21,780 bases of DNA from a virus (Duplodnaviria > Heunggongvirae > Uroviricota > Caudoviricetes): the IMG/VR virus record IMGVR_UViG_3300032053_000031. One strand, written 5' to 3'. The stretch's first letter is position 1, and every line of letters starts with the position of its first letter. This document shows, piece by piece, positions 1,346 through 21,432 of this stretch. Under the pieces are notes generated by a model. That model had not been told where the DNA came from, did no database searches, and worked only from the letters and a program-made list of their open reading frames with translations. The position numbers and the translations under genes are program-made.

Positions 1346-1996
1346 ATGGCAAAAACTATAACAGTTAAAACCGTTAAACAGTTATTTGATGATCTTCGAT
1401 ATCATGTTGATATTGAATATAATACGGATACGTCTCACTGTACATGCCAGGATATATGTCGTTGTGGACGGGTAGTTGATATTAAGGTCAAGGGCTTTTA
1501 TGGGGACATCTCAGAGCTATTTTTTGGTTTATGCAAAGATGAAATCGAAAAATATTGTGTCGACAGAATTGTTACTCATGGCGTAGATATTAATAACATT
1601 CAAGTTAGTACTACATGGGGCTACTACGGGGAAGAATTAGGTACTGTTAAATTAAATAATTCTCCTGTGGCTGAACTTGAGAGTGCCTTAAGTACTAAGA
1701 GTCCCTTGAAAAAGATATTTCAGACTCTAACATATGAGTATGGCTATCTCCTTCCGGATCTTGAGAAGATGACGAAGGTTGAAGTGATAGAAATTCCTTC
1801 TGACCTAATTAATATTGGAAACACTGAGCACTACCGCAGATTAGATAAACAAGCTATAGAACGTTATAAGAACAATAAAAATAAGTTACCAAAAGCTGTT
1901 GTATGTGCTGTAGGTGAAGGATATAGACTGATAGATGGTTATCATCGAATAGCTGCACAAGGGAAAGGTAAAATCAAAGTAATTGTTTTATCATAG
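1346..1996 (+). CDS. Hypothetical protein with C-terminal ParB/sulfiredoxin-like motif and N-terminal Cys cluster
   Basis: C-terminal YRLIDGYHRIAA matches the ParB-N DGxHR motif; HCTCQDICRC near the N-terminus; TAG stop. Confidence 0.6.
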   Translation: MAKTITVKTVKQLFDDLRYHVDIEYNTDTSHCTCQDICRCGRVVDIKVKGFYGDISELFFGLCKDEIEKYCVDRIVTHGVDINNIQVSTTWGYYGEELGTVKLNNSPVAELESALSTKSPLKKIFQTLTYEYGYLLPDLEKMTKVEVIEIPSDLINIGNTEHYRRLDKQAIERYKNNKNKLPKAVVCAVGEGYRLIDGYHRIAAQGKGKIKVIVLS

Positions 1997-2190: not shown

Positions 2191-2490
2191 ATGAGCTCCG
2201 ACAAAGATAAGTCCGTTATTCCTGAGGGACAGTATTGCTACGACGAGTTTGGGGTGTGTCCCTACTGGTCACTCGATCCCACGCACCCTGAACAAGAAAA
2301 TGGTCATTGTGCTTATCTAGAACAAGGCGACTGGGAAACTGGTGGTCTATTATGGGACCAATGTAAAGAGTGTGGAATTAACGAAGATGGACCCGGAGTT
2401 GAAGAGGAGTTTGAGGAAGTCACGGATTTTGTCCAGAAGCATAGAAATGGCAAATGGAGTTCCAATGACGAGGAAGAAACTGACGAGTAA
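2191..2490 (+). CDS. Cys-rich phage hypothetical protein, 99 aa
   Basis: IPEGQYCY...CPYW...GHCAYL...LLWDQCKECG pattern; GAGGA RBS. Confidence 0.65.
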   Translation: MSSDKDKSVIPEGQYCYDEFGVCPYWSLDPTHPEQENGHCAYLEQGDWETGGLLWDQCKECGINEDGPGVEEEFEEVTDFVQKHRNGKWSSNDEEETDE

Positions 2491-3097
2491 ACAGATCATA
2501 GATATTGCAATAGACGCAGGTATCATACCTGAGGCACAAGTTGGCTTAAAGAAAATGCTCACGACTCCAGTGTCTGTAATAAACGTTCCGCATATTATAC
2601 CTGGACGAATGGGTAGACCTGATCAGGTTAGTTATGGTCCTCAACATTACACTCCTACTGAAAAGGTACCTGTAGCATCCTTTAGCAAGTATATCTCTTC
2701 CTATAAAAAGAAAATGATTAGACGTATGGAAGGCTTTCTTCGGGAAGCGAAGAGAATGGATCATAAACTGAAGGAAATAATATTAAAAATGGACGAGCTT
2801 GGCTATAGAATAGATAGTATTGACATATATGACAAAGATAAGGAACAGATATTTAATAACAGAAAGCGGCCTAAGGCTGTGTCGTTTGAAGTCAAAGCGA
2901 CTAGAGGAGAAATGAAATTGTCCGGTAGCTTACGCATCAAGCCCGCAACAATTCACTTCTCTTTAGGTAGAGTCGACAAGTATTATAGGGGGTGTGTACT
3001 CTCTATGAAATACTTCAGGACTCTGCGAGTAAAGGATAACTATCTTGCAGCTTTAGTTAATAGTTCAGAACAGTTTAATTATGGAATGCACTTCTAG
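2465..3097 (+). CDS. Hypothetical protein, about 210 aa
   Basis: Start re-assigned to ATG2465 (GGAG upstream); the track start at 2342 overlaps the previous gene by about 150 nt. TAG stop. Confidence 0.7.
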   Translation: MTRKKLTSKQIIDIAIDAGIIPEAQVGLKKMLTTPVSVINVPHIIPGRMGRPDQVSYGPQHYTPTEKVPVASFSKYISSYKKKMIRRMEGFLREAKRMDHKLKEIILKMDELGYRIDSIDIYDKDKEQIFNNRKRPKAVSFEVKATRGEMKLSGSLRIKPATIHFSLGRVDKYYRGCVLSMKYFRTLRVKDNYLAALVNSSEQFNYGMHF

Positions 3098-3105
3098 GAG
3101 GATAA

Positions 3106-3291
3106 ATGTACCATCCTATATCCACTGACATAATTTATGCTCGAAAGAAAAAGAAAACGAAGACTACCTTAGATAAGGCTGTTGAAGACCTTCAAAAGAA
3201 AGGTGCGAAGTTTAAGGCGGTCTTTAGGGGAAAGAGATGGTACATAATAGTTCCAAGAAAAGGAAGGATAGATTTGTTTCTTCCTGTTTAG
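3106..3291 (+). CDS. Small basic hypothetical protein, 61 aa
   Basis: AGGAGG RBS; Lys-rich; TAG stop. Confidence 0.6.
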   Translation: MYHPISTDIIYARKKKKTKTTLDKAVEDLQKKGAKFKAVFRGKRWYIIVPRKGRIDLFLPV

Positions 3292-4650: not shown

Positions 4651-5540
4651 TGTTGAATCCGACTAGTTTTGATGAATATGTAGGACAAAAACAAGTTATA
4701 GAAAATTTAAAGGTATGTGTTAAGGGAGCAGAAACAAACAGAAAGATATTAGACCACGTACTGCTAGCAGGTCCTGCTGGCTTAGGTAAGACAAGTCTTG
4801 CTGAAATAATTGCTAAAGAAGTTAAAGCCCCAATTATAAAATTAATGGCGCCACTTCTAACCGGCACTTCTATGCTTGACTTGTTTGATGTAATGTCATA
4901 TGGAACAGTTCTATTCATAGATGAAATTCATGCCTTAGCTCCTAAAGTGGAAGAAGCTCTTTACGATCCTATAGACAATTTTAAATGGAGAGGAAAGAGT
5001 ATTCTTCCTTTTACTTTAATTGGTGCTACGACAAAAGAGGGAGGTCTAAGTAAACCTTTACGTAGTCGGTTCACTATTGTTGAAACATTTAATTTCTATA
5101 CAGTAGATGAATTGAAGCAAGTAATTAAAAGGTCGGCATTGTTATTAAATATTAATATAGATGATGACGGGGCGACCATTGTAGCACAACGGTCGAGAGG
5201 AATACCTCGGCTTGCAAATCAGAATCTTAAGAGACTGAGTTATTATAGTAATGTTATAACGCGCGAGATCGCTCAAAACACTTTGGACAAAGCGCTTGGC
5301 ATAGATGAAAACGGGTTGGATAGAGTTGACATCAATATATTAGAAACGATCCACAAATCCTTTAATAATGGTCCTGTAGGTATTGAGTCACTGTCGTCTA
5401 TCGTCGACGAAGATTTGTCGACTCTAGAATCTTTAAGAGAACCCTTCCTTGTAAGATCTGGTTTCTTACAAAGAGGTAGTAAAGGTCGTTCCTTAACATC
5501 CAAAGCTATTGAGTATCTCGAAAGGAAAAACAATGGCTAA
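4650..5540 (+). CDS. ruvB: Holliday-junction branch-migration AAA+ ATPase RuvB homolog, 296 aa
   Basis: LNPTSFDEYVGQ, Walker A GPAGLGKT, Walker B LFIDEIH, FTLIGATT, Arg finger PLRSRF, sensor-2 RGIPR, winged-helix GPVG...EPFL...GR. Start at ATG4650 (AGGAG RBS, TAATG overlap). Confidence 0.95.
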   Translation: MLNPTSFDEYVGQKQVIENLKVCVKGAETNRKILDHVLLAGPAGLGKTSLAEIIAKEVKAPIIKLMAPLLTGTSMLDLFDVMSYGTVLFIDEIHALAPKVEEALYDPIDNFKWRGKSILPFTLIGATTKEGGLSKPLRSRFTIVETFNFYTVDELKQVIKRSALLLNINIDDDGATIVAQRSRGIPRLANQNLKRLSYYSNVITREIAQNTLDKALGIDENGLDRVDINILETIHKSFNNGPVGIESLSSIVDEDLSTLESLREPFLVRSGFLQRGSKGRSLTSKAIEYLERKNNG

Positions 5541-5748
5541 AACAAAGAAGGTAGTAATTAAAGAACTTAATCTTCAATACTCTGACTATAAGAATATTGA
5601 AGGTGAACTAGTAGATGTGGAAAATGAAGTAGCTATCGTAGCTCTTCCACTAAGAAGCTTATTCGCAGAGGATGAAAGAGAGCTTCGTAAGGTGGGAGAT
5701 CGTGTACAAGTTCGTGTTCATGTATCGAGGTTGATTATTAAGGATTAG
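5533..5748 (+). CDS. Hypothetical small beta-rich protein, 71 aa
   Basis: AAGGA RBS before ATG5533; TAG stop 2 nt before the next ATG. Confidence 0.65.
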   Translation: MAKTKKVVIKELNLQYSDYKNIEGELVDVENEVAIVALPLRSLFAEDERELRKVGDRVQVRVHVSRLIIKD

Positions 5749-5750
5749 AT

Positions 5751-6011
5751 ATGGATGCAAATAAGTACAAGAAGTTACAACAAGTTAATTGGCATCCAGT
5801 AGCCTGCTGCGCCACATGTACTCATTTCTGTCGAGGTAGAAAAGGAATGGGTACGTGTGGTGATAGTAGAAATAACTATGAACATTTAAAACATAAGAGG
5901 ACACATCCTCTACCGGCGTATGAAGGAGCTACGTGCGATCGCTGGGTAGCTTCTTCTGAAGCTACTAGAATTAAAGAATGGTTTGGGAGGGGTGAAGATG
6001 AACGTCCGTAA
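5751..6011 (+). CDS. Cys-rich hypothetical protein, 86 aa
   Basis: CCxxCxxxC...C...C pattern; AAGGA RBS. Confidence 0.6.
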   Translation: MDANKYKKLQQVNWHPVACCATCTHFCRGRKGMGTCGDSRNNYEHLKHKRTHPLPAYEGATCDRWVASSEATRIKEWFGRGEDERP

Positions 6012-6372
6012 GCCCGCTAAAATCTGGAAAGAAGAAAAGCTTGACTATTTGATGGCTTATGACCTCGAGGGTTCTATAGACGAAGCTATTAAGAAAATTC
6101 AGGAGTGGCCCAAAGCTTATTCAAATCACAAAGACTTTAAACTAATTTATGAGCACAATGGCGAAGATGGTGCGGACGGTCTTGCTTTAGTCGCTAAACG
6201 TCTTGAGACCGACGAAGAGTTAAACAAACGGGCTAAGGCTAATAGTCAGGCTAAGGGAAGAAGGCAGAAAGAAAAAGAATTGAAAAAGCAGGAAGAGCTC
6301 AAACTTTTGGAACAGCTCCAAAAGAAATATGGAGGGGATAACAAGCAACTCTGTGACAATAACAAAGAGTAG
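5998..6372 (+). CDS. Hypothetical protein with charged C-terminal helix, about 124 aa
   Basis: GGGAGG RBS before ATG5998; TAG stop. Confidence 0.65.
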   Translation: MNVRKPAKIWKEEKLDYLMAYDLEGSIDEAIKKIQEWPKAYSNHKDFKLIYEHNGEDGADGLALVAKRLETDEELNKRAKANSQAKGRRQKEKELKKQEELKLLEQLQKKYGGDNKQLCDNNKE

Positions 6373-6565
6373 TTTTACTTGTTACTTCAAAGGACACATC
6401 TTTAATTATAAGCAAAGGCACGGTAAGCCTAAGTGTTCTAGATGTGGTCACCTTAATGAACCGGATACTTATTATAGAGGATTCACTTATGAGGAACATA
6501 AAGGGCTATGTGATAGTACCACTACTAATACTTCTAGCTGGATGTATGACAACCAAGAACTGTGA
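6329..6565 (+). CDS. Small Zn-binding protein, C-x3-GH...CxRC (DUF1660-like); paralog of 951-1220
   Basis: TCYFKGH...KCSRCGH; start uncertain. Confidence 0.5.
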   Translation: MEGITSNSVTITKSSFTCYFKGHIFNYKQRHGKPKCSRCGHLNEPDTYYRGFTYEEHKGLCDSTTTNTSSWMYDNQEL

Positions 6566-6776
6566 AAAGAAGAGTAATAGACAGACAGCGGAAGCTATCC
6601 AGTTACAATATCTGATGGATCAAGCTGTATTGATGAATATTGATCGCGACTGGATGGTGTTAAATTGTGAGCTGCTCCAGAAGTTTAATGAATTGGGTAA
6701 ATATTGTAAAGTTAAAACTAATTTGAAATTACCCTCGGCTTGTGTCGAAGTATTAAAAAATAAGGAGAAACATTAA
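6489..6776 (+). CDS. Putative lipoprotein, 95 aa
   Basis: MRNIK + hydrophobic stretch + lipobox LAGC; GAGG RBS before ATG6489. Confidence 0.65.
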   Translation: MRNIKGYVIVPLLILLAGCMTTKNCEKKSNRQTAEAIQLQYLMDQAVLMNIDRDWMVLNCELLQKFNELGKYCKVKTNLKLPSACVEVLKNKEKH

Positions 6777-6976
6777 TGCATTACGTAATTAGATGTGTTA
6801 AATCTTTCGGGACAGCGAGACCTGGGATGTTTGTTAATATGACTGGTGGCTATACGCGCAAGATTAATAGTGCTGACGTCTTTAGTAAGGATCGGGCGGA
6901 ACAAATGATCGAAGACTACGTGGGCGACGAAAGCGGTGATTATTTTGAATTACTGCCGGTGGAGATTAACTATTGA
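6776..6976 (+). CDS. Hypothetical protein, 66 aa
   Basis: AAGGAG RBS; TAATG overlap. Confidence 0.6.
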   Translation: MHYVIRCVKSFGTARPGMFVNMTGGYTRKINSADVFSKDRAEQMIEDYVGDESGDYFELLPVEINY

Positions 6977-7428
6977 CTCTTTACGAGAAGAACCGTAGGG
7001 AATGTATTTTCGATTTGAAAAACGTTCCTACGGAAATCTTACGATTCCAAAAGTTTAATAAAAAGCTTACGATAATAGAGAGACGCGTGTCTGCTTTCTT
7101 AATCGATTGTATGGGACGTAATTTTATTTCTAAGGTTAGAACTCAGCAAATTATAAAGTTGGGAGATGACAATTACATCATGGTAGACTTCTTAATAGAG
7201 AAACCTGACCTAATAATTGAAGTTGACGGTCCTGAACACAATACTAAAGAAGATGCCTACCGCGACAAGTTAATTAAGAAGTATTTTAATTATGATGTTA
7301 TTCGTATTAAAAATAAAGATACAATAGTTAAGAACAGTGAAATGCGCAATGATCTTCTGACAATCTTTGCTAAGGTACAAAGACTTGATCCAGGGATTCT
7401 GATACAGAACTACTGGAGTGGAAGATGA
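6973..7428 (+). CDS. DUF559 / Vsr-like PD-(D/E)xK endonuclease
   Basis: VDF...LIIEVDGPEH...D..RD...VIRIKN motif; TTG start with GGAG RBS. Confidence 0.8.
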   Translation: MTLYEKNRRECIFDLKNVPTEILRFQKFNKKLTIIERRVSAFLIDCMGRNFISKVRTQQIIKLGDDNYIMVDFLIEKPDLIIEVDGPEHNTKEDAYRDKLIKKYFNYDVIRIKNKDTIVKNSEMRNDLLTIFAKVQRLDPGILIQNYWSGR

Positions 7429-7493
7429 GTATGTGTCATAAAGACTGGTCAAGGGTGTATAAGATGAATAGGAGTGTACGAGCCAGTGATTAA
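7425..7493 (+). CDS. Possible 22-aa micro-ORF (MSMCHKDWSRVYKMNRSVRASD)
   Basis: GGAG RBS, ATGA overlap with the upstream stop; fills the gap and its stop overlaps GTG7486. Confidence 0.35.
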   Translation: MSMCHKDWSRVYKMNRSVRASD

Positions 7494-7767
7494 GATAGAC
7501 AAAGAAACTTACGTAGAACCTATTGGTCAACTGAAAAAGGTGGTGGACTTCTTAGCATCTGCTGACAAAGAGACAATAAGAATATTAAGTTCCTTCTTTG
7601 CAGGCGAAGCCAAAGGGACGACAGACGCTAAAAAGTTTCAGAAGCCTCTTAAGGTTGTCAATGTATATAAGGATACCATAGAAGTAGAAGTTAATAAGAA
7701 CTACTTATGGGAAGAGAAGACTGATCTGTTTAAACCAGCAAAGGAGAACACCGATGTCGTAGAATAA
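7474..7767 (+). CDS. Hypothetical protein, 93-97 aa
   Basis: GTG start at 7474, or more likely 7486 (AGGAG 11 nt upstream). Its last codons carry the RBS, ATG and TAG of the next gene. Confidence 0.65.
   Translation: MYEPVIKIDKETYVEPIGQLKKVVDFLASADKETIRILSSFFAGEAKGTTDAKKFQKPLKVVNVYKDTIEVEVNKNYLWEEKTDLFKPAKENTDVVE
7741..7746 (+). promoter_or_regulatory. Shine-Dalgarno (AAGGAG) for amber-containing ORF 7754
   Basis: 7 nt upstream of ATG7754. Confidence 0.7.
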
Positions 7768-7972
7768 CGATTGTTTAATTTGCTTAGTTAAGCCAGTCGG
7801 AAAATGCTGTTCCTGCCTAATAAGTGTTTGCACTGAACACTCAATTCGTCATTCCTATGAAGGATTAGAAGTTGGTTGCAGATGTGGTTGTTGTCATACA
7901 ATCATTGAAGAATTTTACTGCCTCGATTGTGCGGAGAAAAATAATATTACGGAGGAAGATAATGTAGACTAA
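7754..7972 (+). CDS. Cys-rich Zn-finger protein with in-frame TAG at codon 3 (needs amber readthrough), 72 codons; not in the ORF track
   Basis: ATG TCG TAG(7760-62) then NNDCLICLVKPVGKCCSCLISVCTEHSIRHSYEGLEVGCRCGCCHTIIEEFYCLDCAEKNNITEEDNVD TAA. No ATG/GTG/TTG in frame after the TAG; paralog of 3237-3425. Confidence 0.75.
7951..7955 (+). promoter_or_regulatory. Shine-Dalgarno (GGAGG) for amber-containing ORF 7962
   Basis: 6 nt upstream of ATG7962. Confidence 0.75.
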
Positions 7973-8423
7973 CAAACTTAATTTAGTCTGTATACTTCAT
8001 GGTCATGAACCTTGTAGTACAACTCCTCAAGGATGTCAAAAACATAAATGGCAAGGACATACATATAGGCGCCAGCAGGTTAAGCGGGATGTACTTATTC
8101 ATAGCTGGGGTCATTGGTTTCATTGTAAGTGGTGTGGCATTCCCTTACAGGCCGTTTGGAGAGGAGCTGACGGAAGAGTTCTATCTTTAGCAGAAAGAAA
8201 GTATATTCCATACGACAGAAAGGTCTGTACAAAGAAGGAACATTATCTACCCATTCCTTTTAATAAGTGTGGAGGTCGGCGAGGTGTACCCTGTGCTCTA
8301 CATGGTTTACTATATGATCACTGCGCCATGTGTAAGGAGCCTATTACAATAGAAGAGATGCCAACAGGGTGTTGTCGCAGATGGTGGAATAACTTTTGTG
8401 GTAAGTGTAGAGGTAGGAGATAA
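7962..8423 (+). CDS. Cys/His/Trp-rich multi-Zn-finger protein with in-frame TAG at codon 2 (needs amber readthrough), 153 codons; not in the ORF track
   Basis: ATG TAG(7965-67) then TNKLNLVCILHGHEPC...HWFHCKWCG...CALHG...HCAMCKEP...CCRRWWNNFCGKCRGRR TAA. The next in-frame canonical start is only at 8328. Exactly fills the gap up to the RBS of gene 8429. Confidence 0.75.
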
Positions 8424-8428
8424 GGAAC

Positions 8429-8662
8429 ATGAAGAAAACAGAAATTGATTTAGTTCCTCAGGAAAGGATTAAGGCTGTATTCTGTAATAAGTGTACCCGC
8501 GAAGTTAATTTAAATAAAGAATCTTACTTCGAGGGTATGTGTAAATGGGGATATGAAAGTAGGAGAGATGGGCAGATTCACGAATTTCATCTCTGTGAAG
8601 ACTGTTATGAGGAACTAATTAAGTCCTTCCGAATTGACGTTGATATAGAGGCCTACTTCTAA
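8429..8662 (+). CDS. Zn-finger phage hypothetical protein, 77 aa
   Basis: CNKC...WGYESRRDG..HEFHLCEDCY pattern; AAGGA RBS. Confidence 0.7.
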   Translation: MKKTEIDLVPQERIKAVFCNKCTREVNLNKESYFEGMCKWGYESRRDGQIHEFHLCEDCYEELIKSFRIDVDIEAYF

Positions 8663-8667
8663 GTTTA

Positions 8668-8738
8668 GACTCCGTAGCTTAATGGCAAAGCAACTATCTC
8701 TAAAATAGTGCATGAGAGTTCAATTCTCTCCGGAGTCA
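8668..8738 (+). tRNA. tRNA with anticodon CTA (amber suppressor, reads UAG); CCA not encoded
   Basis: Acceptor GACTCCG/CGGAGTC, T8-A9, D-stem GCTT/AAGC with loop AATGGCA, anticodon stem ACTAT/ATAGT with loop CT-CTA-AA (anticodon 8700-8702), 4-nt variable loop GCAT, T-stem GAGAG/CTCTC with loop TTCAATT, discriminator A8738. All stems are perfect Watson-Crick. Confidence 0.95.
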
Positions 8739-11309
8739 TTACTTTTTCGACGGTTCCACATAAAAGGTCTTGTCGCAGAAAGGATCAAGACACTGCCAGC
8801 GCTGCATTGTTCCAATGTTACCTTTATATCCAGCGGGGCCACCACACTTAGGACACTTAGGCTTTTCTACTTCTTTCTTTGGTTCTTCCTTCTTAAAAAG
8901 ATCTAATATTCCTGCAGTTAATCCTAAATCAGACAGACAGCGGGCGCAAAGCCATTTATCTGTTTTCTCTCCCTTAGTAATAGCTGGGTAGTGCTTACAA
9001 CGTTCGCACCTTTGGGGTTCTTGAATAAGTCCCTTCTCAACCAGATTTTCTAAGTCAGGCTTTCTTCCGCGGTACATACTCGGAAGCTCTTTTGGCTTTG
9101 CTTCCTCAGTCTCTTCCTCTATTTCTTCCTTACTGATAGGCGGCTTCGCTTTGACTGCGGGCTTCGATGGTTCTATAAGAGATTTAGCTCCCTCGTAGGT
9201 AGAAGCCTGTCGAGCTCTCTCAAGTAGATCGTGAATCAGAGTATATGCATGTCTGAGATTGACTCCACTCTGTTCCGAAACTGTTTCAGCATTGGGAGCT
9301 TCCAAACCTTTTATTTGAGTTCTAGCTTTATAAAATTCAATTAGTTTTGCTGTAGGTCCGCCTTGACCATGAGCTAAAGCGTGCCACTGTCCGGGTTGGA
9401 AGTTCTTTAGAAGACCCCAAAGCTCTTCTGCTGGATAGGTGTACTGTCTCTTTGGTTCTTCTATCTTCTCCGAAGGAGCGCGACCCCGCCTACGCTTTTC
9501 TACTAATGTAGTCGCGTCGATGTCGACATCCGACTCCATAAGATTTCCGGCCCAAGTAACTTGGAACCTAACTTTATGAATGTCCATATCTACCTGAATT
9601 ACTTCAACTACCTGATCTTTAAAGGGACCATCTAGTATCTTTATTGTATCACCCTTCTCATAAGGTGTTTTAAATCCTGGAGGTAACTCTCCCTTCTCCG
9701 TTAGATATCTATTAAGAAATCGTTCAATTACGCGCTGTCTAATATCCTGCCTGATGTTTTCTGGCCAAGGCTCTCTAGGAGGTAACTGCTCACCTGTCTC
9801 TCCACTGCGACGTTTCCCTGGAGTACCAAACCACATATAAAAATAGTATTGTTCCCTTGCAAGCTGTTTCTTCTTTGCTTCAGAAGGTTGACGTCTAACC
9901 TCTTCGCGAAAGTTTTCTAACTCAGCTTCGGTTAAAGGTTCTGGAGATGTATTATCTACCTTGGGACGAATACCTTGAAACATATCTTCGACTAACCAAC
10001 CAATGGTCGGCTCATATATACCCAAAGGTTGTCCAGGAACAGCCGCATCCTTTAAAAGAGGCTTTACTCCCCAATCAGTAAATACTGGGAAAGGATAGTT
10101 AAACTTTGCAGCAAGTATACCTACCAATTCACTAGCCCACTGTGCAAAGGGAGTATTCGTAAATTTAGCCACTTCCGAGAAAGAGGGACCAGCCCACTGC
10201 ATACCAGGATCAATATCCGCTTCCTTACGTATCTTCTTAGGAAGAGGCTGCTGCGCAAGCCACCATCGGCGTAAGCCAGTAGGGATAGGTCTATCTTCCG
10301 GCTGATAAGATGTATTGTCTATGAAAGTAATGTTGTCCCCTTCTTTTCTATAATAGAACTTTAATGTAGTATATCTAGGTACCTCATTAATAATCTCTTG
10401 GATATTTTTAGGAAGTTCCTTAAAGGGAACAACTATCTTATTATAATCGCCGGGAGTGACAGTCCACTTATCCAAAGGAATATCTACTTTTAAATAAAAC
10501 CATATCTGCTCTTCCCGGGTTTTTGGTCTAGGACCTTTCTTTTCTTTCTGTTTATAACCAGGAATACCTATCGTGGCTGCACTATCTGTAAGATATTTAG
10601 CGATAGATATATCGCCAGCATCTCCTCCCTTTGCATCAAAACTAAATTTATCAATGGTAAGCCCTTCCTCTTTAAGAGCTGCACCTGCAGCTATTGCTAC
10701 TCTTTCTGCTAATTTTGTAAGGATCTGTCCAGCAGGAGCGGGTTGAAGAGGTATATCCGCTGCTGCATATGCTTCTGTAATTTGTTTTACAAAAGCTATT
10801 GGACCTCCTAACGAAAGAACAACTGATACCTTATCCTCGTCAGGATCAATGCGATCCACTAAAGCTGTCCATGAATTTTTGAGAGAAGAGTTTTGTATAA
10901 AAATACTTCCATTAATATTACCCATCCATGGTTTCGTCGTCTCTCCTTTTCCTGGAATGGTTCTTTTTCCCGTACCCGAGACATTTACTAATGTATCCCA
11001 AGTTTTTACAAACTCGTCTGGAGTGGGAGGAAGCTCTTTAGGAAGCTCCTGCTTCTTTGCGACAGGTATTTCTTTAGGTTCTTCACCAATAGGCGTTGTA
11101 GGTATTTGTACTGGTTCCTCTTCTTTTGTTTTTTCTTCTTTTAATTCATCCAGGAAAAACTTAAGCAAAGATGAAGCGTTGTCCGCTGCCTTAATTTCCT
11201 CGAGTAATTTTTTTCTTTCAGCCTTCTGTTCCTCAATAGGTAACGTCTTAATTCTAGCTATAGCAGTATCTATCTCAACAGCATCTATCTTTTTTCCAAA
11301 ACGTTCCAT
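8739..11309 (-). CDS. 856-aa multidomain protein: NusG-CTD-like KOW domain, putative HTH, two C-terminal Zn ribbons
   Basis: YEKGDTIKILDGPFKDQVVEVIQVD (KOW, about 9495-9662); PNAETVSEQSGVNLRHAYTLI (HTH-like); CERC...CARC and CPKCGG...QRWQC...C; AGGA RBS. Confidence 0.85.
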   Translation of the reverse strand: MERFGKKIDAVEIDTAIARIKTLPIEEQKAERKKLLEEIKAADNASSLLKFFLDELKEEKTKEEEPVQIPTTPIGEEPKEIPVAKKQELPKELPPTPDEFVKTWDTLVNVSGTGKRTIPGKGETTKPWMGNINGSIFIQNSSLKNSWTALVDRIDPDEDKVSVVLSLGGPIAFVKQITEAYAAADIPLQPAPAGQILTKLAERVAIAAGAALKEEGLTIDKFSFDAKGGDAGDISIAKYLTDSAATIGIPGYKQKEKKGPRPKTREEQIWFYLKVDIPLDKWTVTPGDYNKIVVPFKELPKNIQEIINEVPRYTTLKFYYRKEGDNITFIDNTSYQPEDRPIPTGLRRWWLAQQPLPKKIRKEADIDPGMQWAGPSFSEVAKFTNTPFAQWASELVGILAAKFNYPFPVFTDWGVKPLLKDAAVPGQPLGIYEPTIGWLVEDMFQGIRPKVDNTSPEPLTEAELENFREEVRRQPSEAKKKQLAREQYYFYMWFGTPGKRRSGETGEQLPPREPWPENIRQDIRQRVIERFLNRYLTEKGELPPGFKTPYEKGDTIKILDGPFKDQVVEVIQVDMDIHKVRFQVTWAGNLMESDVDIDATTLVEKRRRGRAPSEKIEEPKRQYTYPAEELWGLLKNFQPGQWHALAHGQGGPTAKLIEFYKARTQIKGLEAPNAETVSEQSGVNLRHAYTLIHDLLERARQASTYEGAKSLIEPSKPAVKAKPPISKEEIEEETEEAKPKELPSMYRGRKPDLENLVEKGLIQEPQRCERCKHYPAITKGEKTDKWLCARCLSDLGLTAGILDLFKKEEPKKEVEKPKCPKCGGPAGYKGNIGTMQRWQCLDPFCDKTFYVEPSKK

Positions 11310-18537: not shown

Positions 18538-18741
18538 CTAATTACCGGGGTCTAAGCCGTCTAATACCTTTGCTAGAAATGTGTCTAACTTAGCCTTTGT
18601 CACACAGTACACATCCATAAATGTGTGACAGTGGGGACATTCGTTGTATATTGCTACTTTACCTTTATATTCAGCAACATAGACATAAAAGTAAAGCGAC
18701 TGCGAGCAGTACACACATCTTACTTTTTTCCGCGTTAGCAT
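18538..18741 (-). CDS. Small Zn-ribbon protein, 67 aa
   Basis: CVYC...CPHC; weak RBS; TAG stop. Confidence 0.55.
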   Translation of the reverse strand: MLTRKKVRCVYCSQSLYFYVYVAEYKGKVAIYNECPHCHTFMDVYCVTKAKLDTFLAKVLDGLDPGN

Positions 18742-19017: not shown

Positions 19018-19842
19018 CTACTTGTATATCTTCCCACCATACATAATACAACCATCAATTACTTTTACTACCCGACCGTCAAAGTGTCCGCTTCCAGGTA
19101 AAACATCTGCGGTCCAGATACCCTGTAGCCATCTAGTGCTGGAATCCTTTAGGAATCCAGGGGATAGTTTACAAAGACACGGGGCAAATACATATTGGTT
19201 TGCGCGTTTGCTATCACCACTATTATGAAGAGTCTCAACTAAATGAGTGTGATGATGACCAATAACGATGTTACGCGCGGGGTATCTCTTCTTCAGGGCA
19301 GTCATACTATTAATGTTATGGCCGTGAAGATACGTAATTTTTCCTAGTGTAAGTTCTTTATCTAAAGGTAAAACTTTAATATTAAATCTGCCGGTCTCTA
19401 AAAACTTCGTTATAAGATTAGCTAAAACTACTTTCCGGATGTTTGCTAGATCGGACTTATAAGTAAGATTTTCAACACCTAGGCGAAGACCTCCTGCTAT
19501 AGCTGGATAAGTTAAACAGGCCCAATAGAGCCAATCTTCGTGATTTCCTGGAATAAAATACTTATTACAATCCGTAGGAAGAGCTTCTATTATCTGCGCT
19601 AGAAGATTCCTACCAAACGCCATCTCTTCGTCAAACATCTTAGAAATCTTTTCTAAGCCAATATACTTAAACTCATGCTCATTCCAATGACTGCACCATT
19701 CGTGATTTAGAAAGTCTCCACCAATAATAAAGTCAGTTGGAGCATAATCCTTTGCAAAAGCTAAAACTGGCGTTAAATCTATATTATGTGGACCATGAAG
19801 ATCGAATAAAGCTAGATGCCTTCTCATGTTTCCTTTTGACAT
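19018..19842 (-). CDS. Calcineurin-like metallophosphoesterase, 274 aa
   Basis: DLH, GGDF, PGNHE, LHGH and GHHH motifs; GGAG RBS; TAG stop. Confidence 0.85.
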   Translation of the reverse strand: MSKGNMRRHLALFDLHGPHNIDLTPVLAFAKDYAPTDFIIGGDFLNHEWCSHWNEHEFKYIGLEKISKMFDEEMAFGRNLLAQIIEALPTDCNKYFIPGNHEDWLYWACLTYPAIAGGLRLGVENLTYKSDLANIRKVVLANLITKFLETGRFNIKVLPLDKELTLGKITYLHGHNINSMTALKKRYPARNIVIGHHHTHLVETLHNSGDSKRANQYVFAPCLCKLSPGFLKDSSTRWLQGIWTADVLPGSGHFDGRVVKVIDGCIMYGGKIYK

Positions 19843-19911: not shown

Positions 19912-21432
19912 TTACGCGTACGGTACCGCTTCAATATAATTATCGGGTAGTGGGCCGACGTAAACAGCGTGTAGATCAGCGTCTTTGCCGAACTGATCAC
20001 CTGTCACATCAATTACTTTATCTTCAACTTCAACCCACCAGTGAGCAAGCATTCTTCCTTTAATATCACTTACATAACCAAAAATAGGAGTTGCGTCTAA
20101 ATGAAAATTGTTTTTAAGTACGTTAGCTAAATACTTTGATGTTTTTTCACAGAAGCCTCGGGGACTTACTTTATGATCTTCTACAAACTGTCCTCTAATC
20201 TGTTCTGCGATAGCCTTAATCTCATCCCAATCTATCTTATTAGCAGTCACTACTATAGTGGTATCATACATAGACGCAGCTGATTTATAAAATGGATTAA
20301 AAGGATTAACGACTGATTGTCCCTCTTGACCCTTCGGAAGAAAATAACTATTATGAACAAAAATTCCAGAAGCAAGAGCAAAATTGTGGTAACTTTCTAC
20401 TCCCACAATATCGTAGACGTCTGCGTAACCATCATTTTCTATTGAGATAACTTTGTGATGAATTGTCCACCCCTTAATGTCGCCACATTTATAAATCGCC
20501 GCAACTCTATGAGTTAATTTTTCCTTTCCTTCGCCAGGATTTCTAACACGTTCATACCCGTGATTGTCTAAGCGACGATATAGAGGCATTAGAGAACTAT
20601 TGATAGTTAAATTGTCTGCTCTACAGTAGGTTCCATCTCGAAGTAAAATTAAATGTTCTGGAGTACATCTAAACGATTCGGCGTTATCCAACACTATTTT
20701 CAATATAGGTACTGCTTTCTTAGTTAAAATAACTTCTTTTGCTAATCCACAACGTACTTCTTTTTTATCTTCATTCATGGAATAAACAAAAAAGTCTTTT
20801 TTCTTCTGTAGATATAATTCCTCTAAAGTAGGGTAGGTACCATCTAGTAGAGGTATTTTAGTGTCTCCGGTTAAACAACCAGGATATTCCCGTTTAAAAT
20901 TATTGTCGCCTATGTCAGATGGCCCCCACCAATCAACGTCATTCATTCGACGTTTATATTGAGGTGGCGCTACTGGACGACCCTTAGCTAGCGGAGCGTC
21001 TAATTCTTCTAAAGGAACATTCTCATATACGTTCTTAGCTTCTAAATCGCCAACGTTCACAGTTTTATCGCGATTTACAGATAGAATAACTCCCTCTACT
21101 TCACTTCGCCAAGTAGTGGGTTTAATCTTAACATGGTCGCCTTTAGTGAAAGCTTCTTTCGACATTGGCTCATAAAGTAGTCCAGGCTTATTAGAACTGA
21201 AGCCGTGCGACTTTTCTGAACCAGACCATTGCTTCCCTCTTGTGGAACTCTGGGGCCCTACTGTAAGATTCTTTTCTTTTAAAATGTTCTGTAGCACAGT
21301 GCAGAGTACTTCTGGATCTATATTAAAACCTAGACTCAAACCAGTAAGATCGGAGAAGGTATCAAAAGGAATTTCTCCTTCGATATTCTTTAATCGTTCT
21401 TCTATAAGCTGTCTAATATCTTGTTCTTTCAT
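19912..21432 (-). CDS. Intein-containing 506-aa protein: SH3-like barrel, intein, C-terminal transglutaminase/papain-like domain
   Basis: FTKGDHVKI...G.I..V (SH3/KOW-like); Hint motifs; GFCEKTS...HWWVE...IDVTGDQF (Cys-His-Asp). Confidence 0.85.
   Translation of the reverse strand: MKEQDIRQLIEERLKNIEGEIPFDTFSDLTGLSLGFNIDPEVLCTVLQNILKEKNLTVGPQSSTRGKQWSGSEKSHGFSSNKPGLLYEPMSKEAFTKGDHVKIKPTTWRSEVEGVILSVNRDKTVNVGDLEAKNVYENVPLEELDAPLAKGRPVAPPQYKRRMNDVDWWGPSDIGDNNFKREYPGCLTGDTKIPLLDGTYPTLEELYLQKKKDFFVYSMNEDKKEVRCGLAKEVILTKKAVPILKIVLDNAESFRCTPEHLILLRDGTYCRADNLTINSSLMPLYRRLDNHGYERVRNPGEGKEKLTHRVAAIYKCGDIKGWTIHHKVISIENDGYADVYDIVGVESYHNFALASGIFVHNSYFLPKGQEGQSVVNPFNPFYKSAASMYDTTIVVTANKIDWDEIKAIAEQIRGQFVEDHKVSPRGFCEKTSKYLANVLKNNFHLDATPIFGYVSDIKGRMLAHWWVEVEDKVIDVTGDQFGKDADLHAVYVGPLPDNYIEAVPYA
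20350..20877 (-). mobile_element. Mini-intein, 176 aa (C186-N361, +1 Ser), with a truncated HNH-endonuclease remnant
   Basis: Block A CLTGDTKI, block B FRCTPEHLIL, block F DVYDI, block G HNFALASGIFVHN|S; internal GYERV...THRV...GWTIHH. Confidence 0.9.

What the first reader, a model, noticed from the sequence alone, without database searches (positions are those of the whole stretch)
8668..8738. Intact amber-suppressor tRNA (anticodon CUA) with non-Gln-like, non-Pyl identity elements
Seen: all four stems are perfectly paired, with conserved U8, G18G19, U33, UUC in the T-loop and an A15-U48 Levitt pair, which argues for a functional tRNA. The acceptor is G1-C72/A2-U71/C3-G70 with discriminator A73 and a short variable loop. 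Established: E. coli tRNA-Gln identity uses U1-A72/G2-C71/G3-C70/G73; bacterial tRNA-Tyr has G1-C72/A73 but a long variable arm; engineered A73 amber suppressors tend to be lysylated. Inference: the inserted residue may be Lys or Tyr rather than the Gln of code 15, which would be an unusual phage recoding. CCA must be added post-transcriptionally.
Basis: partly seen in the sequence, partly recalled or inferred. Interest (0 to 1): 0.8.

Follow-up and report, generated by a model that had tools for sequence, protein, structure and literature searches.

The report
Phage amber-suppressor tRNA, non-glutamine type
A large uncultured phage that otherwise uses the normal genetic code carries a genuine tRNA that reads the stop codon UAG, and its only visible clients are two small neighbouring genes with UAG right after their start codon, so it looks like a private key for those genes and not a rewritten genetic code.

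Summary
Window 8668-8738 (+) is a canonical 71-nt elongator tRNA with anticodon CUA (ARAGORN; Rfam tRNA 67 bits, E 7e-13). All 21 stem pairs are Watson-Crick. A JGI metagenome contig is 100% identical over 3.2 kb that includes it, so CTA is not an assembly slip.

The acceptor end (G1-C72, A2-U71, C3-G70, A73) is indeed not glutamine-like. All three suppressors of the TAG-to-Gln phage phAss-1 have G73 and a weak or mismatched 1-72 pair. It is also not Pyl-like and not initiator-like.

The "unusual recoding" reading is not supported. TAG ends 7 of about 27 window genes, and long genes here and 10 kb beyond are intact in code 11. In-frame TAG occurs only at codon 3 of ORF A (7754-7972) and codon 2 of ORF B (7962-8423), just upstream on the same strand. 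The only detectable homologue of ORF A, in another metagenome, also begins ATG-ACT-TAG.

The tRNA most likely serves as a dedicated reader for these two genes. The inserted residue cannot be inferred and probably matters little. Similarity to 451 reference tRNAs favours no isotype, and Gln ranks near the bottom.

The scan has noted similar suppressor-plus-early-TAG pairs on other phage DNA.

The parts
8668..8738 (+). Elongator tRNA, 71 nt, anticodon CUA (amber suppressor), no encoded CCA
   Evidence: ARAGORN. Rfam RF00005 at 67 bits, full length. All 21 stem pairs are Watson-Crick. The sequence is identical in L001.
8700..8702 (+). Anticodon CTA inside the loop CTCTAAA (C32 U33 C34 U35 A36 A37 A38)
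   Evidence: A36-A37-A38 is the loop context typical of tRNAs that read U-starting codons (my own knowledge).
7754..7972 (+). ORF A, a 72-codon Cys-rich mini-protein that begins ATG TCG TAG
   Evidence: AAGGAG lies 7 nt upstream of the ATG, and there is no other ATG/GTG/TTG in frame. Its only homologue, P0003 (E 1.1e-6 against 1.8 billion representatives), is encoded as ATG ACT TAG AAG CTA TGT TGT on L002.
7760..7762 (+). In-frame TAG, codon 3 of ORF A, followed by A
7962..8423 (+). ORF B, a 153-codon Cys/His-rich protein that begins ATG TAG
   Evidence: GGAGG lies 6 nt upstream of the ATG. The next in-frame canonical start is 120 codons downstream. It resembles the ORF that follows the ORF A homologue on L002 (36% identity, E 3e-5 pairwise), which also has an N-proximal in-frame TAG.
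7965..7967 (+). In-frame TAG, codon 2 of ORF B, followed by A
8429..8662 (+). ORF C, a 77-aa zinc-ribbon-like protein with no TAG. Its stop codon lies 5 nt before the tRNA.
   Evidence: The exact protein occurs on 5 contigs from 5 samples. Pfam gives only weak zinc-ribbon hits.
8739..11309 (-). Convergent 856-aa gene whose stop codon abuts the 3' end of the tRNA. It marks the end of the rightward transcription block.
   Evidence: No homologues were found.

Best explanation
This is a functional, canonical elongator tRNA with anticodon CUA, encoded by a large uncultured phage that otherwise uses the standard code. It lies at the 3' end of the rightward gene block, 5 nt after ORF C. It is therefore probably cut out of the same transcript that carries ORF A and ORF B (inferred).

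After processing and CCA addition, a host synthetase charges it (inferred). Which enzyme does so is open. My own knowledge of identity rules points to LysRS or GlnRS as the commonest chargers of CUA tRNAs. The strong G1-C72 pair and A73 argue against the glutamine route used by code-15 phages.

The tRNA then competes with RF1 at UAG. Its dedicated clients are the UAG at codon 3 of ORF A and at codon 2 of ORF B. Without the tRNA, ribosomes release only fMet or a dipeptide. With it, the two zinc-finger-like proteins are made. Because message and tRNA come from one unit, the arrangement would act as a delay or AND gate (inferred).

The inserted residue sits in an unconserved N-terminal position, so its identity is probably unimportant. 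This is a gene-specific amber gate and not a change of genetic code.
For: The tRNA is real and complete and is identical in a second assembly.

It is an elongator, not an initiator. It has G1-C72, C11-G24 and an anticodon stem with one G-C pair.

The surrounding code is standard. TAG ends 7 of about 27 genes. ORFs of at least 100 aa cover 86% of the window under code 11. Gene calls on the 117,657-nt contig have code-11 lengths, and genes of 1453 and 810 aa are intact in the next 10 kb.

Only two ORFs in the window combine an ATG, a Shine-Dalgarno at 6-7 nt, a TAG at codon 2-3, a long open frame and no alternative start. They are adjacent and lie 245-908 nt upstream of the tRNA on the same strand.

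The TAG at codon 3 is kept in the only homologue of ORF A (46% identity), with all Cys conserved.

All the early TAGs are followed by A: three clear ones plus one ambiguous one on L002. Only 1 of the 7 terminating TAGs is. Fisher p is about 0.015-0.03.

No terminator-like site lies between ORF A and the tRNA.
Against: Nothing here is experimental. Expression, processing, charging and suppression are all inferred.

No homologous tRNA was found in any collection searched, so there is no covariation or conservation evidence for the tRNA itself.

L002 is only 504 nt, so it is unknown whether that phage has a suppressor tRNA.

TAG is not depleted as a stop. An efficient suppressor would extend seven window proteins by 4-47 residues.

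Only about 42 kb of a genome of at least 117 kb could be assessed for in-frame TAG. Late genes elsewhere might be recoded.

On L002 the ORF B homologue has ATG codons just after its TAG and may not need suppression.
Confidence: 0.58

Rival explanations
1. This is ordinary partial code-15 recoding. The tRNA inserts Gln and mainly serves late structural or lysis genes, rich in in-frame TAG, that lie outside the window. ORF A and ORF B are just two more recoded genes.
For: Recoded phages typically keep early and replication genes in standard code and recode late genes, and they carry Sup-CUA tRNAs (10.1101/2021.08.26.457843; PMC7886860). This window holds replication and repair-type genes (RuvB, RlaP). 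About two thirds of the contig was not readable to me.
Against: TAG is a common stop here (26%), whereas relatives of recoded phages deplete it. Genes of 2157, 1453, 856 and 810 aa are intact in code 11 across about 42 kb. The acceptor end lacks the G73 and weak 1-72 pair seen in all three phAss-1 Gln suppressors. Both TAGs sit at codon 2-3 and not at conserved internal positions.
Confidence: 0.13
2. This is a pre-emergent or idle suppressor. A recently mutated or captured tRNA has no adapted client. ORF A and ORF B are translated in another way (non-canonical start, reinitiation) or are decaying genes.
For: Suppressor tRNAs without detectable reassignment are known and have been read as incipient code change (PMC7886860). 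Jumbo phages XacN1 and RsoM2USA carry Sup-CUA tRNAs with no identified targets (PMC5852040; PMC8504454). No tRNA homologues were found to show conservation.
Against: The TAG at codon 3 is kept across 46%-identical homologues whose frames and cysteines are intact. The two gated genes are adjacent to the tRNA. The ATGs have ideal Shine-Dalgarno spacing and no other start is available. The tRNA shows no decay, with 21 of 21 Watson-Crick pairs.
Confidence: 0.14
3. The target is the host. The tRNA causes read-through of host UAG stops to damage host or defence proteins, or to counter a host system, and the two early TAGs are incidental.
For: This idea has been proposed for recoding phages (PMC7886860 discussion). 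According to an earlier scan note that I did not test, the phage invests heavily in tRNA and RNA repair functions.
Against: The phage would hit its own genes too, since 7 of about 27 end in TAG. The idea does not explain the conserved early TAGs placed next to the tRNA.
Confidence: 0.08
4. This is the first reader's reading: a dedicated non-Gln reassignment (TAG = Lys or Tyr) forming a new phage genetic code variant.
For: A73 and U35 fit LysRS and TyrRS determinants (established identity rules, my own knowledge). The acceptor end is not Gln-like. Gln tRNAs are among the least similar in the reference set.
Against: There is no evidence of reassignment at any conserved position. TAG remains a frequent stop. 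The bacterial tRNA-Tyr long variable arm is absent. No isotype stands out by similarity. The residue may well be Lys, but that would not amount to a code change.
Confidence: 0.05

Closest known systems
Suppressor tRNA(CUA) of TAG-to-Gln ('code 15') phages: crAss-like, Lak and phAss-1 (10.1101/2021.08.26.457843; PMC9523058; PMC10607447)
   Same: It is a phage-encoded class-I tRNA with a CUA anticodon in a CUCUAAA-type loop. It is presumed to be charged by a host synthetase, and it lets the phage translate genes that the uninfected cell would terminate.
   Different: Those phages have tens of genes with internal TAGs at conserved Gln positions and avoid TAG as a stop. Here TAG ends 26% of genes and occurs in frame only twice, at codons 2 and 3. 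The phAss-1 suppressors have G73 plus U1-A72, A1-U72 or U1/C72. This one has G1-C72 and A73.
Suppressor tRNAs of standard-code phages with no known target: Xanthomonas jumbo phage XacN1 (PMC5852040), Ralstonia phage RsoM2USA (PMC8504454), and 'pre-emergent' suppressors in crAss-like phages (PMC7886860)
   Same: A CUA tRNA sits in a large phage whose genome is otherwise readable in code 11.
   Different: Here candidate targets are visible next to the tRNA. I did not locate or compare the XacN1 and RsoM2USA suppressors. One pattern search of RsoM2USA found none.
Suppressor-tRNA plus early-TAG gene pairs noted earlier by this scan in other jumbo phages, often with a PTH2-like gene (e1-125904, e1-1835197, e1-1681951, e1-5370690, e1-933198). 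These are unpublished AI notes.
   Same: The architecture is the same: standard-code phage, CUA tRNA, and a neighbouring gene with TAG at codon 2 or 3.
   Different: The gated genes here are two Cys-rich zinc-finger-like mini-proteins, with no PTH2-like gene in the window. I did not test the notes themselves. The other Sup-CUA loci I fetched (L005-L011, L117) showed no clear gate in their short flanks.
E. coli laboratory amber suppressors (supE Gln, supF Tyr, and engineered A73 suppressors that are charged with Lys or Gln).
   Same: It has a CUA anticodon with A37 and A38. Charging would be governed by U35 and the acceptor end. An A following the UAG favours suppression.
   Different: This tRNA is natural, phage-borne, AT-rich and compact (71 nt, 4-nt variable loop), and it is not derived recognisably from any one isotype.

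Membership tests
tRNA (Rfam RF00005), canonical class I elongator | Cloverleaf with 7/4/5/5-bp stems, U8, A14, G18G19, U33, purine 37, T54-Psi55-C56 and G53-C61 | tested here: met
   Rfam gives 67 bits over 1-71/71. All 21 pairs are Watson-Crick and all listed bases are present.
Amber suppressor tRNA | Anticodon CUA at positions 34-36 of a 7-nt loop | tested here: met
   The loop is CUCUAAA at 8698-8704, with the anticodon at 8700-8702.
Amber suppressor tRNA | Is aminoacylated and reads UAG in vivo | not testable with these tools
Code-15 (TAG = Gln) phage suppressor system | Gln-type acceptor identity (G73, weak or mismatched 1-72 pair) | tested here: not met
   This tRNA has G1-C72 and A73. 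The three phAss-1 suppressors have G73 with U1-A72, A1-U72 or U1/C72.
Code-15 (TAG = Gln) phage suppressor system | Many genes with internal in-frame TAG, and TAG avoided as a stop | tested here: not met
   There are 2 in-frame TAGs, both at codon 2-3. TAG ends 7 of about 27 genes. Flanking genes are intact in code 11. This covers only about 42 kb of a genome of at least 117 kb.
tRNA-Pyl | 3-nt variable loop, 6-bp anticodon stem, shrunken D-loop without G18G19, non-canonical T-loop, pyl genes nearby | tested here: not met
   It has a 4-nt variable loop, a 5-bp anticodon stem, a 7-nt D-loop with GG and a UUCAAUU T-loop. No PylS-like domain was found among the window proteins scanned.
Bacterial initiator tRNA (a possible UAG-start reader) | 1-72 mismatch, three G-C pairs at 29-31/39-41, A11-U24 | tested here: not met
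   It has G1-C72, the pairs U29-A41, A30-U40 and U31-A39, and C11-G24. Shine-Dalgarno spacing fits the ATGs at 6-7 nt and not the TAGs at 9-13 nt.
Bacterial tRNA-Tyr | Long (class II) variable arm with A73 and G1-C72 | tested here: not met
   The variable loop is 4 nt. A73 and G1-C72 are present.
tRNA-Lys-like identity | U35 and A73 as the main LysRS determinants (my own knowledge) | tested here: inconclusive
   Both bases are present. However, the best identity to 21 Lys tRNAs is 48 of 68 positions, no better than for most isotypes.

The most novel reading that the evidence does not exclude
The tRNA is the key of a self-contained amber gate. One phage transcription unit carries two zinc-finger mini-protein genes locked by a UAG directly after the start codon, and it also carries a non-glutamine-type UAG-reading tRNA that unlocks them. 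This would give a built-in delay, or a check that phage tRNA processing and repair is working. It would also supply the missing targets for the suppressor tRNAs seen in standard-code jumbo phages.
Probability: 0.4. Interest if true: 0.75.

Novelty: new variant of a known kind. Interest (0 to 1): 0.55.

Why it matters
Phage suppressor tRNAs are usually taken as markers of a changed genetic code with TAG read as Gln. Published work on standard-code jumbo phages reports such tRNAs with no identifiable target (PMC5852040). Here the tRNA is not Gln-type, the code is standard, and two plausible targets sit next to it, one of them with a conserved early TAG.

If this holds, annotation pipelines should not switch such genomes to code 15. 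They should instead look for start-proximal TAGs, which standard gene callers miss. Here the callers left a 660-nt "gap" and a spurious 63-aa ORF. It would also offer a compact natural translational switch that is easy to test with reporters.

Tried and rejected
Search for tRNA relatives:
- The exact tRNA and two relaxed patterns in IMG/VR viral contigs gave no homologue. They returned only unrelated GC-rich Sup-CUA tRNAs.
- The same relaxed pattern in JGI metagenome contigs gave 5 loci, none homologous.
- blastn against 50,697 phage records gave only weak hits scattered over Thr, Val, Cys, Leu, Lys and Ala tRNAs.

D-arm pattern in GTDB genomes: 120 or more hits, spread over Gly, His, Thr, Met, Lys, Asn, Phe, Ile, Gln and one CUA tRNA. 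The D-arm is therefore not isotype-diagnostic. The one CUA hit (L117) has an unrelated context.

Isotype by nearest neighbour: against 451 unselected reference tRNAs the best matches are Arg, Cys, Ile, Leu and Thr at 50-55 of 68 positions. Gln is near the bottom at 45. No call is possible.

Protein relatives:
- The 856-aa neighbour has none.
- ORF B has none.
- ORF A has a single homologue.
- P0003 retrieves only itself.
- The ORF A/P0003 alignment finds nothing in viral contigs.

Inferring the residue from P0003's 'Q3' was rejected. That Q is a TAG that the database read as Q.

Other dead ends:
- No whole genome is held.
- DNA of the 117-kb ENA contig is not retrievable.
- BK046881 is not in the phage collection.
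- A pattern search for the RsoM2USA suppressor found nothing.
- A sample-accession search in the literature found nothing.

Readings rejected: Pyl and initiator (see the membership test).

Full report
**1. Is the tRNA there?**

Yes. ARAGORN reports one tRNA in the window, at 8668-8738 on the + strand, with anticodon cta. Its 'Pyl' label is only the program's name for a CUA anticodon.

Rfam's tRNA model matches the same 71 bases end to end at 67 bits, against a gathering score of 29, with E 6.9e-13. With standard numbering (positions 17 and 47 absent), all 21 stem pairs are Watson-Crick. The usual invariant and tertiary positions are present: U8-A14, A15/U48, G18G19, A21, A26/G44, U33, A37, U54-A58, C56 and G53-C61.

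The acceptor stem is G1-C72, A2-U71, C3-G70 and the discriminator is A73. The variable loop has 4 nt and no CCA is encoded. The fold is more stable than shuffled sequence (z = -4.4).

**2. Is CTA a sequencing error?**

The 77-aa protein encoded just upstream occurs on five contigs from five samples. One of these contigs, a 3244-nt JGI metagenome contig (L001), could be read. It is 100% identical to window 5517-8760, including the tRNA, its anticodon and both in-frame TAGs described below.

**3. What genome is this and which code does it use?**

The window is phage-like. It encodes RuvB, an RlaP-type nucleotidyltransferase, a trypsin-like protease, a metallophosphoesterase, an intein-bearing protein and a 2157-aa protein with a NADAR domain. 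It is part of a 117,657-nt metagenomic contig. No whole genome is held and there is no close relative among 50,697 phage records.

The code around the tRNA is standard.
- Seven of about 27 genes end in TAG.
- ORFs of at least 100 aa cover 86% of the window under code 11.
- None of the called genes has an internal TAG, including those of 2157, 856 and 506 aa.
- Gene calls recorded for the long contig have the code-11 lengths. They also show intact genes of 1453 and 810 aa in the 10 kb beyond the window.

Recoded phages and their relatives deplete the reassigned stop codon (10.1101/2021.08.26.457843). That is not the case here. I could judge only about 42 kb of the contig, so recoding of distant late genes is not excluded.

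**4. Where are UAG codons read?**

The one hole in the ORF track (7768-8428) is filled by two Cys-rich frames.
- ORF A (7754-7972) begins AAGGAG, 7 nt, ATG TCG TAG. It has no other ATG/GTG/TTG in frame.
- ORF B (7962-8423) begins GGAGG, 6 nt, ATG TAG. Its next canonical start is 120 codons downstream.

A scan of both strands for a start codon, 0-4 codons, then TAG and a long frame, with a Shine-Dalgarno and no nearby alternative start, returns only these two. They are followed by ORF C (8429-8662). Five nucleotides later comes the tRNA, all on one strand and with no terminator-like site between them. The tRNA ends exactly where the convergent 856-aa gene ends.

**5. Is the early TAG conserved?**

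An exhaustive HMMER search of 1.8 billion representative proteins with ORF A (residues after the TAG) found one homologue, P0003 (E 1.1e-6, 46% identity). Its 'Q3' is a TAG. The tool reports that the gene translates to the query only with TAG = Q, and the DNA reads AGGAG, 7 nt, ATG ACT TAG AAG CTA TGT TGT.

So two homologues that differ at more than half their residues, but keep every cysteine, both keep TAG as codon 3.

On that 504-nt contig the next ORF resembles ORF B (E 3e-5 pairwise). It also has an N-proximal TAG, but ATG codons follow it, so that case is ambiguous.

Every early TAG is followed by A, against 1 of the 7 terminating TAGs. From my own knowledge of the E. coli context-effect literature, an A after UAG favours suppression.

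**6. Which amino acid?**

- *Alignment is uninformative.* The only TAGs are N-terminal, and the only homologue has a TAG at the same place.
- *Acceptor end.* As a control I extracted all 37 tRNAs of phAss-1, a TAG-to-Gln phage (PMC10607447). Its three CUA suppressors all have G73 with U1-A72, A1-U72 or U1 opposite C72, like its own tRNA-Gln genes. The tRNA here has G1-C72 and A73, so "not Gln-like" is a fair statement.
- *Other special classes.* It also lacks initiator features and Pyl features.
- *Similarity.* The best phage hits are scattered over Thr, Val, Cys, Leu and Lys. Its exact D-arm occurs in Gly, His, Thr, Met, Lys, Asn, Phe, Ile and Gln tRNAs. Against 451 unselected tRNAs the top matches are Arg, Cys, Ile, Leu and Thr at 50-55 of 68 positions, with Gln near the bottom.
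- *Identity rules (my own knowledge).* Among synthetases that accept A73, only LysRS and TyrRS use U35. Bacterial TyrRS also uses the long variable arm, which is absent here. GlnRS often charges CUA tRNAs but prefers a weak 1-72 pair and G73.

My rough odds are Lys 35%, Gln 20%, and other residues or a mixture 45%. Because the residue lands at position 2 or 3 of the protein, selection on its identity is probably weak.

**7. Most likely mechanism**

Shown:
- A complete CUA tRNA.
- A standard-code context.
- Two adjacent upstream genes that can be translated from their only plausible start only if UAG at codon 2 or 3 is read.
- Conservation of that UAG in a distant homologue.

Inferred:
- The tRNA is co-transcribed with the genes, processed, given CCA and charged by a host enzyme.
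- It opens the two genes.
- Placing the stop codon right after the start makes failure cheap (fMet or a dipeptide) and makes expression depend on accumulation of the tRNA.

Rivals are distant late-gene recoding, an idle or pre-emergent suppressor (PMC7886860), and host-directed read-through. None explains the conserved early TAG next to the tRNA as well as the gate reading does.

The main weaknesses are three. No experiment exists. No tRNA relatives were found. TAG-terminated phage genes would be extended by 4-47 residues if suppression were efficient.

**8. Relation to what is known**

Phage Sup-CUA tRNAs are well known in code-15 phages. Suppressors in standard-code jumbo phages have also been reported, with no identified targets (PMC5852040; PMC8504454).

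Earlier notes of this scan describe suppressor-plus-early-TAG pairs in other phages, often with a PTH2-like gene. I treated these as leads only. They prompted the initiator test, which this tRNA fails. The other Sup-CUA loci I fetched showed no clear gate in their short flanks.

I file this as a new variant of a known kind: a non-Gln-type phage amber suppressor that serves start-proximal UAGs in a standard-code genome.

Noticed in passing
window 1346-1996, 2342-3097, 3106-3291, 5509-5748, 5983-6372 (+); 18538-18741, 19018-19842 (-): These seven genes end in TAG. Read-through would add 16, 12, 4, 47, 11, 15 and 23 residues before the next TAA/TGA. Their +4 bases are G, G, T, A, T, G, G, whereas all the early in-frame TAGs have A at +4.
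   Followed up: partly
window 7753-7767 and 7958-7972: Both early TAGs lie inside the last codons of the preceding gene (GTA GAA TAA and GTA GAC TAA), 2 nt before its TAA. The homologue on L002 keeps the TAG without this overlap, so the overlap does not explain the TAG.
   Followed up: partly
L153:1404-1494 (phage phAss-1, OQ749652): One of the three phAss-1 CUA suppressors is 91 nt long. Its long variable arm has a loop reading CUCUGAA, which is a Gln-anticodon-like loop. The other two are Gln/Trp-like class I tRNAs with G73.
   Followed up: no
L008:9198-10675 and L010:981-2458 (JGI metagenome contigs): An unrelated phage-like contig carries a tmRNA (tag ADDYYEEYALAA), a Sup-CUA tRNA with G1-C72 and U73, and a dozen further tRNAs, several with unusual lengths.
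   Followed up: no
L117:980-1050 (3.3-kb contig binned with an Altiarchaeales MAG): This 71-nt CUA tRNA has the same D-arm as the window tRNA, a 4-nt variable loop and A73, but otherwise different stems. No early-TAG gene was evident nearby.
   Followed up: partly
window 19912-21432 (-): This 506-aa protein has an intein splicing domain (PF14890) at residues 193-361. The host protein was not identified.
   Followed up: no
window 8739-11309 (-): This 856-aa protein abuts the tRNA. It has no detectable homologue in 5.8 billion clustered proteins, only a weak KOW hit, and C-terminal CxxC pairs.
   Followed up: partly
window 7999-8190 (+): Gene callers place a spurious 63-aa ORF here, out of frame inside ORF B, because code 11 cannot start ORF B. 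This shows how start-proximal TAG genes are missed.
   Followed up: yes
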